DNA of 64,000 bases from NCBI RefSeq assembly GCF_009914755.1, contig NC_060935.1; one strand, 5' to 3'. The notes under the pieces are model-generated. The model was not told the origin of the DNA and made no database searches. It saw only the letters and a program-made list of their open reading frames with translations. The stretch is from the human T2T-CHM13v2.0 reference genome, Homo sapiens. This document shows, one piece after another, positions 6,381 to 25,911 of this stretch. The first letter of the stretch is position 1; each line of letters begins with the position of its first letter. The translations under genes and the position numbers were made by a program.

Positions 6381-6605
6381 AGATCACCTGAGGTTGGGAG
6401 TCTGAAAGTAGCCTGACCAACATGGAGAAAACCCGTCTCTACTAAAAATACAAAATTAGCCGAGCATGGTGGCACATGCCTGTAATCCCAGATACTCAGG
6501 AGGCTGAGGCAGGAGAATCGCTCGCACCCAGGAGGCAGAGGTGGCAGGGAGCCAAGATCGCGCCATTGCACTCCGGCCTGGGCAACAAGAGCCAAACTCT
6601 GACTC
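6381..6605 (+). mobile_element. 5'-truncated AluS (AluSp-like), copy of the Alu at 25630-25911
   Basis: AGATCACCTGAGG...CATGGAGAAA...CTACTAAAAATACAAAATTAGCC...GGCAACAAGAG. Confidence 0.93.
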
Positions 6606-9600
6606 AATCAACAAAACCTCAATTTATTAAAGAGTATTTTCTGTGTGATTTTGTATTTTTAATTGTTATCCAATTTGTCAAGTTTTACAAGTGATAGGGC
6701 CCCTTGTATCCAAGACAGTTTTACTACACTTGCCTGAAGACCCTGTATTTAAAATACTGTTTCTAGCAATACATATTTATAATATCTATAGGAGTTTACA
6801 CAGAAATCATGGGATTCTCTCCTTTTTGGCTGTTTGTTTTGGTCTTTTCTTCCCATTGTGGGTGCACATGCACACTGCATGTTTTTATTAATTAGATTAA
6901 GTGATGCCGGATATTTCTGTTTGATGGAGGGATTGACTCATTCAGCCACATGATCAAGTGAGAAAGAGATATCATATTTTATTGTATCTTTTTAGAAAGT
7001 ACTATCCATACATATTGGGGAAAAACATTTATCGTCAAATTATAAAACAATGCAGATATAAGCATGTATGTATTGCTAGAATTAAACTCTTTTTAATCAA
7101 GGAGTTTTAGATAAACTGGATAGAAAATCTTTAACATATTAAAAATAGATATCAGGGAAAAGTGTCATTTGATAAAATGGGGGAAATGTAATAGATGATT
7201 ACCAGAAATACAAAATTAAGCCGTATATGCTCTTAAGTAAATCGAATCCAGACATCTTTAAAATATAAAAAAAGGATGCAACAAGAGTAAGATGCAAATT
7301 AAAGGAATTGGGGGAGGTGATGTTTAGAACAAGCAAAGAGAATGCAATGGGAAGCAAACATATTTTAGGCAAATTCTCCTGGAGTGGACCAGACAGCCCT
7401 CTTTTCCAGACTCAGTTCCAAAGAGTCCCTTATGTGGGTATTTCTTTTATTTTTCCTTTGAGGACTGCACTTGGTGTTTAGTTCAACCTCATGCGGACCT
7501 CATGGAATTTCCAAGACGTAGGTCCTTGGCATTGTGGCACCTTCCTGCCACACGCACATAATTCACAGCATTACCAAGTCACCATGAGCTCCACGCTCAC
7601 CTCTGTCAGCCCAGGACCCAGCCAGGCAGTGTCACATGGTCTCCCAGGCATGCCTTTCCAAGCCGGCTATCCCTGCTGCGAAAGTTGTGAAGGCACTGGT
7701 CTGGGGAGCTGAGCCCTGGGCCTGTCCTAAAGCTCCATAGGTGACTGCACTGCATCCCACATGGAGAGCTGCAGCTCTAACAGAGGGATTTTGAGAGGCC
7801 TCAGTCGCCTTTAAGTGGCACTTCCAGGACACCCATCTTGAGCTCTCACAAATGGCTCCACCTTCTCAAGAATGTCTAATTGTCATTGGAACAGCCAGTG
7901 TCTGGCAGCTTCGCTCGGGCTGATGTGGCATCTGACCCTTGGTGGGTGGCCAGACATTCCTTCCTGTTTCTGCCATGGGAAGTTGACACTGGGAATGGTA
8001 TGGAGCCCCCACTTCTACACTAAGCCTTGGGTGTCTGCTGCTTCCAGGTCACAAATGGATATTTCTGGTCCTGACCAGCCACTACCACACTGTAACCGAT
8101 GCTCATAGTCTCCAGGGATGTGCAGAACAGCAATGGCAGGACAGCAAACAACTGGCGATTTCCCCAGGTCCCACACTGTTCCGGAGTGGGCGTGTTGGGT
8201 CCCTGTTCCCAATGTGTTCCATCCTTACCCAGGTGCACAGGGTACCTTGGGGCCAGCACAGGGCTTGTCAAGTAATGCTCCTGGTGTCCACAAAACAGCT
8301 CCAGAGATACCTGCATTTTGAAAAGCCTGCCAAGCCAACAAGTATGGGGCAGGACCCAGATTGCTTTGGCAAATATGAAGGTGAGCTGGCCACTTGCCTG
8401 GTGAGTAGAAGCTGCCTTTACCTGGCCAGTGTATGCAACTTGAGAGAAAATGACAATTTCACGGGGGGGTTCTGGTGGGACTGGGAAGCCTGACCTTCCC
8501 CGGAGCTTTGGTATGGCCCCAGTGGAAAGACTGGATTTTGAAAACCCACCAGAGCCAACTGAAAGAAGGGTCATCCCTGATGAGATCCCAGACTCCCCCT
8601 GGTCTCTCTGGACTCACTTTAGGCGTGCCTTGCCTGTTGGCATCCCTTCCCTTTGGCCCATGAGGCAGGTCCAGGTAGCTTCTGCAGCTGTGTGCCTGGG
8701 TACTGGCCCAGCACTTCTCATTTTTGCCATGTGGAAGCAGATTTGCTAGTAGAGGAATTTTCCAAGTCAAAGGAAGTGTCACCGAGACTCTTTCCTCCAC
8801 CTATCGAGAACCCATGATCTTGGTTTCTTATTATCTTTGGAGTGGGCAGCAGAGGAGACAAGCAGGCCTCCAGCCAGGCTCAGGGAGTGTGGGAAGGCAG
8901 GGAGAAAAGTCTAGAAGATGGGGAAGTAGAGCCACCTTGAGGGGGTGTCCTGGGGTCAGTGTCGAGGTGATCAGATGAGCCAGTTTATATTTAAGCAACA
9001 TTATTATGTTCAATTATTTTGGGTAAGGGATTCCTCAGGGGAGGTGTGGTCATCTGGTCCCAGAGGTGGAGTGCAATGCCCACTCATCTTCCTGAGCCAT
9101 TTGGAAGCCCTTTCTTCTAGCCCTAGGTACTGGTGACACAGGCTCCTCGGTCTCAGGAGGTGCACAGGGCTGGGGGGGGTGCAGGCTTCTTGTCACTTAC
9201 ATACTCAGCACGATTGGGCATCAGGCATTCAGAGATCTTAGAGTGGCCTCTCTAAAAACCTGGTGTCCTAGGAGAACATTTATTATTTTTGTCTATTTTT
9301 GTTTCTTTGAACTGCTGCATTCACTCACTGAGGGCTCGCCCTCCGTGCACCCCTCATGTTGTTCAGGAAGGAGGGGACTGACAAGCATGGACCCCTTTCT
9401 CCCCTTCTGTCAGTTGCCACCACACTGTCCCCACTGGCTTTATCACCATGTTCTCCCACCCCTGTTGCCTCATCTCTTCTTCCTCATTCACCCTTCCTTC
9501 CTTTGCCTGTTTTCTTCCCCAAGTTGGTTAAGTTCTTTATCATCCCTGGCACCACCTACCCTGAGGTCTACCAAGGACAGAAAAGCAGGGGCCTCTGTGA

Positions 9601-25629: not shown

Positions 25630-25911
25630 GAGTCAGAGTTTGGCTCTTGTTGCCCAGGCCGGAGTGCAATGGCGCGATCTTGGCTCCCTGCCACCTCTGC
25701 CTCCTGGGTGCGAGCGATTCTCCTGCCTCAGCCTCCAGAGTAGCTGGGATTACAGGCATGTGCCACCATGCTCGGCTAATTTTGTATTTTTAGTAGAGAC
25801 GGGTTTTCTCCATGTTGGTCAGGCTACTTTCAGACTCCTAACCTCAGGTGATCTGCCCGCCTCGGCCTCCCAAAGTGCTGGGATTACAGGCGTGAGCCAC
25901 CGCGCCCGGCC
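25630..25911 (-). mobile_element. Full-length AluS (AluSp-like) within the retrocopy 3'UTR
   Basis: Complete dimer ending ...GCGTGAGCCACCGCGCCCGGCC; degenerate TSD (minus strand) AAAAGATCGATTTATTA / AAAACCTCAATTTATTA. Confidence 0.95.

What the first reader, a model, noticed from the sequence alone, without database searches (positions are those of the whole stretch)
6381..25854. 19.5-kb near-perfect palindrome embedded in pericentromeric alpha satellite
Seen: two 7.8-kb arms in inverted orientation around a 3802-bp spacer. Over the inner ~7.7 kb I could find only three SNVs (8803/23432, 10687/21548, 12527/19708; two at CpG) plus a remodelled GAAA STR (+4 bp), i.e. about or below ordinary allelic divergence. 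Established: large near-identical palindromes are best known on X/Y and promote spacer inversion and arm-to-arm gene conversion. Inference: a very recent, possibly polymorphic autosomal palindrome whose spacer may flip recurrently.
Basis: partly seen in the sequence, partly recalled or inferred. Interest (0 to 1): 0.85.

Follow-up and report, generated by a model that had tools for sequence, protein, structure and literature searches.

The report
Old inverted duplication with homogenised arms
The 19.5-kb palindrome on human chromosome 11 is real, but its arms are near-identical because an old pair of inverted duplicated segments has been copy-corrected against each other, a known behaviour seen here in a gene-free autosomal spot.

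Summary
The arms are 6379-14214 and 18017-25856 and the spacer is 3802 nt. The arms differ by 6 substitutions and 10 indel columns in one GAAA-type repeat.

The reading "very recent palindrome" is not supported. Just outside the left arm lies a 1-kb segment X (5354-6380). Its inverted partner X' (27718-28741) sits 1.86 kb beyond the right arm. X and X' are only 93.3% identical, yet they are sister sequences among ten paralogues (support 100/98). So the two inverted copies separated long ago, roughly 10-30 My by inference. Only the longest uninterrupted homology has been kept or made identical.

Both arms retain ancestral junctions: left arm to spacer, and right arm to ANKRD33BP2. The homogenisation was therefore homology-driven, meaning arm-to-arm gene conversion. 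Three of the six substitutions lie in the outermost 120 nt (P = 7e-5), an edge effect.

One haploid genome cannot tell sustained conversion from one recent event. The GC-bias and CpG tests were inconclusive. The arms hold ANKRD33B-derived pseudogene sequence and no gene.

This is a new member of a known kind and of modest interest.

The parts
1..5351 (+). Left flank: monomeric alpha satellite, 171-bp period, 31.4 copies at 83% matches.
   Evidence: TRF. It ends where segment X begins.
5354..6380 (+). Segment X, the outer remnant of the left duplicon copy. It includes sequence homologous to the ANKRD33B 5' exon region. It is 93.3% identical to the inverted X' at 27718-28741.
   Evidence: 1028 columns, 64 mismatches, 3 gap openings. 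(p-distance 6.27%). (sister to X', 100/98; tips 0.041 and 0.029; shared branch 0.013). (31 and 21 private changes, 8 shared, over 994 columns).
6378..6380 (.). Junction J2, a deletion junction in the left copy. X homology runs to 6380 and arm homology starts at 6379, giving a 2-nt overlap. The junction cuts an Alu that is complete on the right side. 1861 nt (the equivalent of 25857-27717) are missing.
   Evidence: A 120-mer across the junction is unique in the genome.
6379..14214 (+). Left arm, 7836 nt. It is homologous to the 3'-terminal ~7 kb of ANKRD33B on chr5 (82%). About 94% identical copies lie elsewhere on chr11.
12820..12929 (+). GAAA-type microsatellite holding all 10 indel columns between the arms. 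Its partner lies at 19302-19416.
14213..14229 (+). Short imperfect inverted repeat at the arm/spacer boundary. It is complementary at 12 of 17 positions to the last 17 nt of the spacer (18000-18016).
   Evidence: 15 of 12603 sites in the left copy score as well. (12/17 and 10/17 in two paralogues; a third was mis-registered by my mapping). This was found post hoc, and the best register is 2 nt off the observed junction.
14215..18016 (+). Spacer, 3802 nt, single copy in the window. In the paralogues it is colinear with the left arm, so the junction 14214/14215 is ancestral.
18016..18017 (.). Junction J1, the palindrome-forming breakpoint. The far end of the spacer is joined to the inner end of the inverted arm with at most 1 nt (C) of microhomology. 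All seven paralogue loci examined continue instead into a shared sequence Z that the window lacks.
   Evidence: A 100-mer across the junction is unique in the genome.
18017..25856 (-). Right arm, 7840 nt.
25857..27717 (-). Segment D. It is present only in the right copy and holds the RefSeq pseudogene ANKRD33BP2 (26113-27158). It continues the arm as in the paralogues, so the junction 25856/25857 is ancestral.
   Evidence: and the annotation given with the task.
27718..28741 (-). Segment X', the inverted partner of X.
28742..35628 (-). The rest of the right duplicon copy. It stays colinear with the paralogues up to 35628 and includes the TRIM48 pseudogene LOC100420449. At 35628 the paralogues continue into non-satellite sequence while the window turns into alpha satellite.
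35627..61348 (-). Right flank: alpha satellite on the opposite strand to the left flank. The arrays run 35627-37461 and 37760-61348, the latter also with 342-bp periodicity.
   Evidence: Left and right satellite match only at 81-87% in many registers.

Best explanation
This is an old inverted segmental duplication, not a newborn palindrome.

Origin. A duplicon of the chr11 TRIM/ANKRD33BP family sits as a 30-kb island in an alpha-satellite block. The duplicon is built around a copy of the ANKRD33B gene's exons and 3' end. Long ago, roughly 10-30 My by inference, it acquired an inverted partial copy. The likely route was a fold-back event: a DNA end at the far end of the present spacer was joined to, and extended along, its own upstream sequence. 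This gave the order ...X-D-arm-spacer-arm'-D'-X'... and lost the distal sequence Z.

Later history. A 1.86-kb deletion (D) in the left copy cut X off from the arm. Since then X and X' have diverged freely to 6.3%. The 7.8-kb arms are the longest uninterrupted inverted homology, and they have evolved as one lineage. Non-allelic (arm-to-arm) gene conversion copies one arm onto the other, so they differ at only 6 bases. Conversion rarely reaches the last ~100 nt at the outer edge of homology, where half of the differences sit.

Shown: the anatomy, the junctions, the age contrast and the edge clustering.

Inferred: the conversion mechanism, the fold-back origin and the dates.

Open: whether conversion has been sustained since the origin (my estimate about 0.45) or whether already diverged arms were homogenised by one or a few multi-kb conversion events in the last ~1 My (about 0.3).
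For: (1) The arms are 99.81% identical, whereas the adjacent inverted pair X/X' is 93.3% identical.
(2) X and X' are each other's closest relatives among 10 paralogues (100/98). Their separate tips are 0.041 and 0.029 and their shared branch 0.013. They have 31 and 21 private changes against 8 shared, and most are non-CpG.
(3) In the arm tree, both arms sit on one branch of 0.024 with zero-length tips, while six paralogues have tips of 0.016-0.030. The single-copy spacer has a tip of 0.032. So the window lineage is as old as its paralogues.
(4) Both arms keep ancestral junctions. Arm to spacer on the left matches all paralogues, and arm to D/ANKRD33BP on the right matches the paralogues. Only a homology-guided process can overwrite one arm with the other and leave both junctions intact.
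(5) Three of the 6 substitutions lie in the outermost 120 nt (P = 6.9e-5 under uniformity). At 6498/25737 the two arms carry different derived bases. This looks like retained or older divergence at the edge of homology.
(6) J1 is a clean non-homologous join (at most 1 nt) with loss of Z. A 12/17 inverted repeat sits at the spacer ends and also exists in paralogues.
(7) Precedent read in papers:
- X palindromes have been kept above 99% identity for at least 25 My by conversion.
- Y palindrome P6 has conversion tracts with a mean of 2 kb and a maximum above 9 kb.
- Interlocus conversion events between human SDs have a mean length of 6.26 kb.
- In this same chr11 TRIM duplication family, two tail-to-tail genes are 100% identical over 6 kb in human but 96-98% in chimpanzee and orangutan.
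Against: - The age contrast rests on a single 1-kb internal clock (X/X'). Its tips are longer than those of the other paralogues, so the dates are rough.
- No GC-biased signature was found on the arm branch. There are 27 W>S changes against 39 S>W. This equals the paralogue baseline (p = 0.44) and differs from a 70:30 bias acting over the whole branch (p = 0.012). Once the pre-duplication share of the branch is allowed for, the difference is no longer significant (p = 0.14).
- CpG retention in the arm is only a trend (11 of 57 lost, against about 30% in the others; p = 0.11).
- The inner 1285 nt are perfectly identical right up to the spacer, while the outer edge is not. I have no tested explanation for this asymmetry.
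- A control pair of the same duplicon (BP4/BP5 at 50.03/50.06 Mb, inverted, 18 kb apart) is only 94.7% identical. Inverted orientation alone therefore does not guarantee homogenisation.
- All the evidence comes from one haploid assembly. No reads, other haplotypes or ape genomes could be consulted.
Confidence: 0.78

Rival explanations
1. One reading: a very recent de novo palindrome. On this view the second arm was created in the last few hundred thousand years by an inverted duplication, and the low divergence is simply its age.
For: Three SNVs in the inner 7716 nt give about 0.2-0.4 My if read as an age. J1 is a clean breakpoint unique in the genome.
Against: - A fresh copy of the arm would not arrive next to its own ancestral neighbour X in the right order and orientation with only a 2-nt join.
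- X is sister to X' but 6.3% diverged from it.
- Both arms have ancestral junctions on one side each.
- The differences cluster at the outer edge (P = 6.9e-5).
Confidence: 0.04
2. Recent re-formation. An old, more widely spaced and diverged inverted pair was remodelled recently. A fold-back from the spacer end copied the left arm and was resolved by homologous recombination in the outermost part of the old right arm. Z and most of the old right arm were deleted.
For: This explains perfect identity right up to J1, old-looking differences only in the outer 120 nt, the absence of a GC-bias signature, and the blunt J1.
Against: The homologous switch would have to fall within the last ~1.5% of the 7.8-kb homology, which is unlikely a priori. 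No remnant of Z or of an old inner right arm is present in the window. It needs more events than the best explanation.
Confidence: 0.08
3. Assembly artefact: a false inverted duplication in T2T-CHM13.
For: Nothing positive.
Against: The arms differ at 6 substitutions and in a microsatellite. A 3.8-kb unique spacer separates them. The left copy has its own 6%-diverged flank X and its own deletion, and the flanks on the two sides are different sequences. A fold-back chimeric-read artefact would give a spacer-less, perfect palindrome.
Confidence: 0.02

Closest known systems
Human and primate X-chromosome palindromes (Jackson et al. 2021, Genome Res, PMC8327919; passages read)
   Same: Inverted arms with over 99% identity around a unique spacer. 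X palindrome spacers range from 77 bp to 358 kb. The old age is masked by ongoing arm-to-arm gene conversion, and 12 of them are conserved for at least 25 My. The centre of symmetry is the site of rearrangement, and spacer inversion by NAHR is expected.
   Different: This one is autosomal. Its arms (7.84 kb) fall just under that paper's 8-kb cut-off. It has no protein-coding or testis gene family in the arms or spacer (and the annotation), so selection on arm genes cannot be what preserves it. It lies in a satellite-flanked SD island. No GC-skew of replacements was detected, whereas 64.5% GC of derived bases is reported for X palindromes (PMC8981503).
Human Y-chromosome palindromes P1-P8, e.g. 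P6 (Hallast et al. 2013, PMC3723533; abstract and passages read)
   Same: Arm identity above 99.9%, with a handful of paralogous sequence variants. Conversion tracts are multi-kb (mean 2068 bp, maximum above 9 kb), which is the scale needed to keep a 7.8-kb arm uniform. Inversions are much rarer than conversions.
   Different: The Y arms are tens to hundreds of kb, lie on a non-recombining chromosome and carry genes. For them, conversion was demonstrated on a phylogeny of many chromosomes. Here it is inferred from one haplotype.
Interlocus gene conversion between human segmental duplications (Vollger et al. 2023, PMC10172114; passages read)
   Same: Multi-kb, homology-driven overwriting of one SD paralogue by another. 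The mean length is 6.26 kb and events are commonest in high-identity SDs. The paper's Fig. 4g legend names a TRIM locus.
   Different: Those events were called as differences between haplotypes. Here the donor and acceptor are the two arms of one palindrome 3.8 kb apart, and polarity and frequency are unknown. The paper's supplementary tables, which might list this locus, were closed.
The chr11 TRIM segmental-duplication reservoir (Han et al. 2011, PMC3228819; passages read)
   Same: It is the same duplication family and region. The paper describes inverted ('mirror-image') duplications and a tail-to-tail gene pair 100% identical over more than 6 kb in human but 96-98% in chimpanzee and orangutan, attributed to gene conversion.
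   Different: That paper deals with the TRIM genes at 11q14.3 and next to the centromere. It does not mention ANKRD33B pseudogenes (0 occurrences) or this palindrome.

Membership tests
Large palindrome, operational definition of Jackson et al. 2021 | Inverted-repeat arms longer than 8 kb | tested here: not met
   The arms are 7836 and 7840 nt. The paper itself admitted one 6.5-kb-arm palindrome as an exception.
Large palindrome, operational definition of Jackson et al. 2021 | Arm-to-arm nucleotide identity above 99% | tested here: met
   99.809% including gap columns. There are 6 substitutions in 7836 nt.
Large palindrome, operational definition of Jackson et al. 2021 | Less than 500 kb between the arms | tested here: met
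   The spacer is 3802 nt.
Palindrome maintained by arm-to-arm gene conversion (concerted evolution) | Arms much more alike than the age of the inverted pair predicts | tested here: met
   The arms differ at 6 sites. The adjacent inverted pair X/X' differs at 64 of 1021-1028 sites and is sister in the tree. The arms share one branch with zero-length tips.
Palindrome maintained by arm-to-arm gene conversion (concerted evolution) | Within-species arm identity exceeds between-species arm identity at orthologous palindromes | not testable with these tools
Palindrome maintained by arm-to-arm gene conversion (concerted evolution) | GC-biased pattern of replacements in the arms | tested here: inconclusive
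   27 W>S against 39 S>W on the arm branch. p = 0.44 against the paralogue baseline, p = 0.012 against a 70:30 bias over the whole branch, and p = 0.14 after allowing a 28% pre-duplication share.
Ampliconic sex-chromosome-type palindrome with arm gene families | Protein-coding (often testis-expressed) genes in the arms | tested here: not met
   RefSeq annotates nothing in the arms or spacer. ORFs of 120 aa or more are mirrored junk frames or low complexity. There are no Rfam hits. The arms are ANKRD33B-derived pseudogene sequence. Expression was not tested.
Segmental duplication (at least 1 kb and 90% identity; definition recalled) | Long, high-identity, non-transposon copies elsewhere in the genome | tested here: met
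   Six copies on chr11 at 93-94%, chr2 at 88%, and the parent on chr5 at 82%. The same holds for the spacer and the right flank.
Fold-back (snap-back) inverted duplication | A junction joining a sequence to the complement of its own upstream sequence with little or no homology, and loss of the distal sequence | tested here: met
   J1 has at most 1 nt of microhomology. The 7 paralogue loci examined continue into Z, which is absent from the window.
Fold-back (snap-back) inverted duplication | A short inverted repeat at the two ends of the spacer that could have primed the fold-back | tested here: inconclusive
   12/17 complementary, matched by 15 of 12603 control sites. It is also present in paralogues at 12/17 and 10/17. 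The best register is 2 nt off the observed junction, and the test was post hoc.
Alpha-satellite-embedded sequence | 171-bp tandem arrays on both sides | tested here: met
   TRF finds period 171 at 1-5351 and 35627-61348. The palindrome is separated from the arrays by 1.0 kb on the left and 9.8 kb on the right.

The most novel reading that the evidence does not exclude
A gene-free autosomal palindrome, inside a satellite-flanked duplication island, has been held at about 99.9% arm identity for more than 10 My by recombination mechanics alone. It leaves no detectable GC-bias footprint. If so, palindromes do not need selection on arm genes to persist. It would also point to a conversion process different in character (for example mitotic or replication-associated, and unbiased) from the GC-biased one documented on X and Y.
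Probability: 0.15. Interest if true: 0.6.

Novelty: new member of a known kind. Interest (0 to 1): 0.35.

Why it matters
It corrects an attractive misreading: near-zero arm divergence dates the last homogenisation, not the birth of a palindrome.

The locus carries its own internal clock. X and X' were cut off from the arms by a 1.86-kb deletion. One can therefore read, within a single haplotype, that the inverted pair is old while the arms are young-looking.

That makes it a compact natural test case for how far conversion extends towards a homology boundary. It also bears on whether gene-free autosomal palindromes persist without selection, and on whether conversion outside the sex chromosomes is GC-biased.

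Practically, arms of 7.84 kb fall just below the 8-kb cut-off used in palindrome surveys. Structures like this can therefore be missed. Inverted repeats of 7.8 kb around a 3.8-kb spacer are also a plausible site of invisible inversion polymorphism and of mapping or assembly error in a region bordering the TRIM and FOLH1 duplications.

Tried and rejected
(1) A larger old palindrome that includes the alpha satellite. The left and right arrays are on opposite strands, but they match only at 81-87% in many 171-bp registers, with no colinear ~93% signal. The idea is not supported. Satellite turnover could have erased the signal, so it is not excluded.

(2) The satellite junction as part of the ancestral duplicon. 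This is rejected. Two paralogues continue past the equivalent of window 35628 into non-satellite sequence.

(3) The left copy's deletion shared with another paralogue. This is rejected. The X-only match pattern is found only at the window's left copy, and the junction 120-mer is unique.

(4) The same palindromic junction at another locus. This is rejected.

(5) GC-biased conversion footprint: no signal, inconclusive. Arm GC is 0.480 against 0.477-0.487 in the paralogues.

(6) CpG protection in the arms: a trend only (p = 0.11 and p = 0.07).

(7) CpG decay as the cause of the X/X' divergence. This is rejected, because 26 of 31 and 16 of 21 private changes are non-CpG.

(8) Function in the arms or spacer. 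The ORFs of 120 aa or more are mirrored non-conserved frames or repeat translations, and there are no Rfam families. I did not run Pfam on these ORFs.

(9) I noticed that the inner end of the arm begins with a heptamer resembling a recombination-signal heptamer. That resemblance is recalled, was not tested, and I dropped it as probable chance.

(10) Literature. No paper holds 'ANKRD33BP2'. Searches for autosomal palindrome catalogues and for 11p11.12 inverted duplications found nothing on this locus. The ape-genome paper's palindrome mentions concern the rDNA distal junction. Warburton et al. 2004 was seen only as a citation inside Jackson et al. and was not read. Supplementary tables were closed, and they could list this locus. 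These include the IGC calls and hotspots of Vollger 2023 and the palindrome tables of Jackson 2021.

(11) Reads, GRCh38, HPRC haplotypes and ape assemblies were not available. Polymorphism, spacer orientation in other genomes and assembly support were therefore not tested.
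Full report
OBSERVATION. The repeat finder reports two abutting inverted blocks, 6379-12939/19296-25856 (99%) and 12930-14214/18017-19301 (100%), with 3802 nt between the arms. blastn joins them into one alignment of 7842 columns at 99.809%. A global alignment of the 7836-nt left arm and the 7840-nt right arm has 16 differing columns. Six are substitutions: 6396/25839, 6492/25743, 6498/25737, 8803/23432, 10687/21548 and 12527/19708. Ten are indel columns, all inside one GAAA-type microsatellite (12820-12929 / 19302-19416), with a net +4 nt on the right.

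SETTING. The window is chr11:49,042,001-49,106,000. TRF finds 171-bp alpha satellite at 1-5351 and, on the opposite strand, at 35627-37461 and 37760-61348. Between them lies a 30.3-kb island of non-satellite sequence, and the palindrome is part of that island. The fully repeat-masked centromeric block of chr11 runs from about 51.0 to 54.5 Mb, so the window is about 1.9 Mb distal of it. The neighbourhood is the 11p11.12 cluster of TRIM, UBTFL and ANKRD33B pseudogenes next to FOLH1. Han et al. 2011 described the related chr11 TRIM clusters as a reservoir of young, often inverted, segmental duplications (passages read).

WHAT THE ARMS ARE. Searching the arm against the whole reference gives six copies on chr11 at 93-94% identity: 55.80, 50.06, 49.137, 50.03, 49.995 and 55.216 Mb. 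It also gives copies on chr2 at 88%, and the last ~7 kb of the ANKRD33B gene on chr5 at 82% (gene coordinates). The sequence beyond the right arm matches chr5 in four abutting blocks that are 53, 6 and 23 kb apart in the parent gene. The founding element therefore looks like an intron-less copy of ANKRD33B that later spread by segmental duplication. That is an inference, because I had no chr5 exon table. RefSeq annotates nothing in the arms or spacer. The ORFs of 120 aa or more are mirrored, non-conserved or repeat-derived frames, and Rfam finds nothing. Unlike the X and Y palindromes, this one carries no gene.

WHICH JUNCTIONS ARE OLD AND WHICH ARE NEW. In every paralogue the arm runs straight into the spacer, with arm position 7836 next to spacer position 1 on the same strand. 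The left-arm/spacer junction 14214/14215 is therefore ancestral. In the paralogues the outer end of the arm runs straight into the ANKRD33B-pseudogene segment. The right-arm/ANKRD33BP2 junction 25856/25857 is therefore ancestral too. The right side stays colinear with the 55.80-Mb paralogue for 17.6 kb, up to window 35628. Two junctions are new.
- J1 (18016/18017) joins the far end of the spacer to the inner end of the inverted arm. All seven paralogue loci that I examined continue instead into a shared sequence Z, which does not occur in the window. The join has at most one base of microhomology and is unique in the genome.
- J2 (6378-6380) lies at the outer end of the left arm. It cuts through an Alu that is complete on the right side and is also unique.

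THE KEY RESULT. The 1-kb segment to the left of J2, called X here (5354-6380), is not foreign. It matches window 28741-27718 in inverted orientation at only 93.3% (1028 columns, 64 mismatches, 3 gap openings). On the right side that partner, X', lies 1861 nt beyond the arm, and ANKRD33BP2 lies in between. The left side is therefore an old copy of the same duplicon, with the order X-arm-spacer preserved. It has lost 1.86 kb by a deletion with a 2-nt overlap.

An ML tree of X, X' and eight paralogues puts X and X' together (100/98). Their shared branch is 0.013 and their separate tips are 0.041 and 0.029. Counting private changes over 994 columns gives 31 for X, 21 for X', 8 shared, and 12-18 for three other paralogues. 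Most changes are non-CpG.

In the arm tree, by contrast, the two arms sit on one branch of 0.024 with zero-length tips, while six paralogues have tips of 0.016-0.030. The single-copy spacer has a tip of 0.032, against 0.018-0.024 for the paralogue tips. The window lineage is thus as old as its paralogues, and the left and right copies separated early in that history. Without homogenisation the arms should differ at roughly 5% of sites, or some 400 positions. They differ at six.

As a yardstick, Jackson et al. report X-palindrome arm divergence of 0.87% between human and chimpanzee and 5.50% between human and rhesus. Vollger et al. report 60% more SNVs in SDs than in unique sequence. Han et al. 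quote about 14 My for the pericentromeric chr11 duplication. I therefore put the split of the two copies at roughly 10-30 My. This is an inference with wide error.

MECHANISM. Each arm still has one ancestral junction, and the left arm still has its own diverged flank. One arm must therefore have been overwritten by the other in register, which means by a homology-guided process. That process is arm-to-arm (non-allelic, intrachromosomal) gene conversion, as in the X and Y palindromes.

The distribution of the remaining differences fits this. Three of the six substitutions lie in the outermost 120 nt, next to the point where homology ends because of the left copy's deletion (P = 6.9e-5 if the differences were uniform). 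At 6498/25737 the two arms carry different derived bases, A and T, where most paralogues have G. Identity thus steps from 93.3% (X) to 97.5% (outer 120 nt) to 99.96% (the remaining 7716 nt, excluding the STR). Conversion tracts need homology on both sides and will seldom include the last ~100 nt.

The three inner differences are all AT-to-GC changes in one arm. 8803 is derived on the right, 10687 on the left and 12527 on the right, and two of them create CpGs. Read as time since the last homogenisation, they give 0.39 My (range 0.08-1.1 My) at 0.5e-9 per site per year, or half that at 1e-9.

ORIGIN OF THE INVERTED COPY. The order X-(D)-arm-spacer | arm'-D'-X', the loss of Z and the blunt J1 are what a fold-back inverted duplication gives. 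A DNA end at the far end of the present spacer is joined to, and extended along, its own upstream sequence starting at the present arm/spacer boundary.

The last 17 nt of the spacer can pair with 14213-14229 at 12 of 17 positions. Only 15 of 12,603 sites in the left copy do as well. Two paralogues show the same short inverted repeat at 12/17 and 10/17, so it pre-dates the event. I treat this as suggestive only. I found it post hoc through an odd BLAST hit, and the best register is 2 nt away from the one that would give the observed junction by simple extension. Which side was the template cannot be decided, because a spacer inversion would exchange the roles.

Both ends of the island are breakpoints against satellite, and the satellite changes strand across the island. 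A once-larger palindrome reaching into the satellite is conceivable, but the 81-87% matches do not support it.

SUSTAINED OR RECENT HOMOGENISATION? I tried to separate two versions.

Sustained concerted evolution is favoured by three points. About 5% divergence would strongly hinder recombination once it was reached. Identity runs right up to J1. And X palindromes are known to be maintained this way for at least 25 My.

A recent one-off or few-step homogenisation is made plausible by the multi-kb events catalogued between human SDs (mean 6.26 kb). There is also the human-specific 6-kb identity of two tail-to-tail TRIM genes in this family.

The tests were inconclusive. On the arm branch I count 27 W>S and 39 S>W changes. 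This is indistinguishable from the pooled paralogue tips (0.361; p = 0.44). It differs from the 0.568 expected if every variant had been resolved with the 70:30 GC bias inferred for X palindromes (p = 0.012; bias value). If about 28% of the branch pre-dates the duplication, as the X tree suggests, the expectation falls to 0.505 and p rises to 0.14.

The arm has lost fewer consensus CpGs (11 of 57, 19%) than the pooled paralogues (about 30%). But p = 0.11, and one paralogue is equally low.

A control pair of the same duplicon in inverted orientation (50.03 and 50.06 Mb, 18 kb apart) is only 94.7% identical. Homogenisation is therefore not automatic in this family. I do not know why it happened here. 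The short 3.8-kb spacer is an obvious candidate but is untested.

My split is about 0.45 for sustained conversion and about 0.3 for recent.

COMPARISON WITH WHAT IS KNOWN. In architecture and behaviour this is a small palindrome of the X/Y type. It meets two of the three operational criteria of Jackson et al. 2021: identity above 99% and a spacer under 500 kb. It misses the third, arms over 8 kb, by 160 nt. It differs in being autosomal, gene-free, satellite-flanked and without a detectable GC skew. It is equally an instance of interlocus gene conversion between segmental duplications, with donor and acceptor only 3.8 kb apart.

I found no paper that mentions this locus. The search for 'ANKRD33BP2' returned 0 papers, and five other searches found nothing. 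The supplementary tables, where such a locus would be listed, were closed. The genome-wide catalogue of Warburton et al. 2004 was not readable to me. I therefore claim only that I could not find it, not that it is unreported.

VERDICT. Its value is as a tidy, self-dating example. It may also serve as a test of whether palindromes persist without selection, and of whether conversion away from the sex chromosomes is GC-biased.

Noticed in passing
window 1-5351 versus 35627-61348: The alpha satellite changes strand across the 30-kb island. The right-hand array also shows 342-bp (dimeric) periodicity, and it is interrupted at about 37461-37760 by an Alu-like piece.
   Followed up: partly
G000 C11:50068873-50071146 (-) and C11:55245764-55247243 (+): Two complementary halves of one duplicon unit (query positions 1473-3744 and 1-1474 of window 29600-25857) lie on opposite sides of the centromere, on 11p and 11q. 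This is the signature of a breakpoint inside the duplicon, for example an old pericentric inversion.
   Followed up: no
G000 C11:89.70-89.98 Mb (ANKRD33BP7-10): In segment X, BP8/BP9 differ by only 0.22% and BP7/BP10 by 0.41%, and they lie in mirror order. They belong to the very large, very similar inverted duplication at 11q14.3 that Han et al. describe as a mirror-image inversion.
   Followed up: no
window 25857-29600 versus chr5 ANKRD33B: The pseudogene matches the parent gene in four abutting blocks whose chr5 positions are 53, 6 and 23 kb apart. The founding copy of this duplicon family therefore looks like an intron-less (retro-)copy that included the long 3' end now forming the arms.
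   Followed up: partly
window 8803, 10687, 12527 and partners: All three inner arm differences are AT-to-GC changes in one arm, and two of them create CpGs. The sample is too small to interpret (about 0.05 by chance under the baseline spectrum).
   Followed up: partly
L005 (C11:49.137 Mb) and L007 (C11:49.995 Mb): Two paralogues share the same truncation point upstream of the arm, equivalent to window ~26366-26369. They probably descend from one truncated copy. The 49.137-Mb copy is also the nearest relative of the arms in the tree (93/98).
   Followed up: no
segment X and X' (5354-6380, 27718-28741) and spacer (14215-18016): The window's single-copy or unconverted segments have longer branches than their paralogues: X 0.054 and X' 0.042 from the polytomy against about 0.02, and spacer 0.032 against 0.018-0.024 for the paralogue tips. 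The arm branch is at parity (0.027). This may reflect a locally raised mutation rate in the satellite-flanked island, offset in the arms. It is unexplained.
   Followed up: partly
window 268-1083: RefSeq lists an 'OCT4 hESC enhancer' functional element entirely inside the left alpha-satellite array.
   Followed up: no
window 61348-64000: The alpha array ends near 61348. The last 2 kb have a strong AT skew (0.316) and are one long masked block that continues beyond the window. I did not identify it.
   Followed up: no
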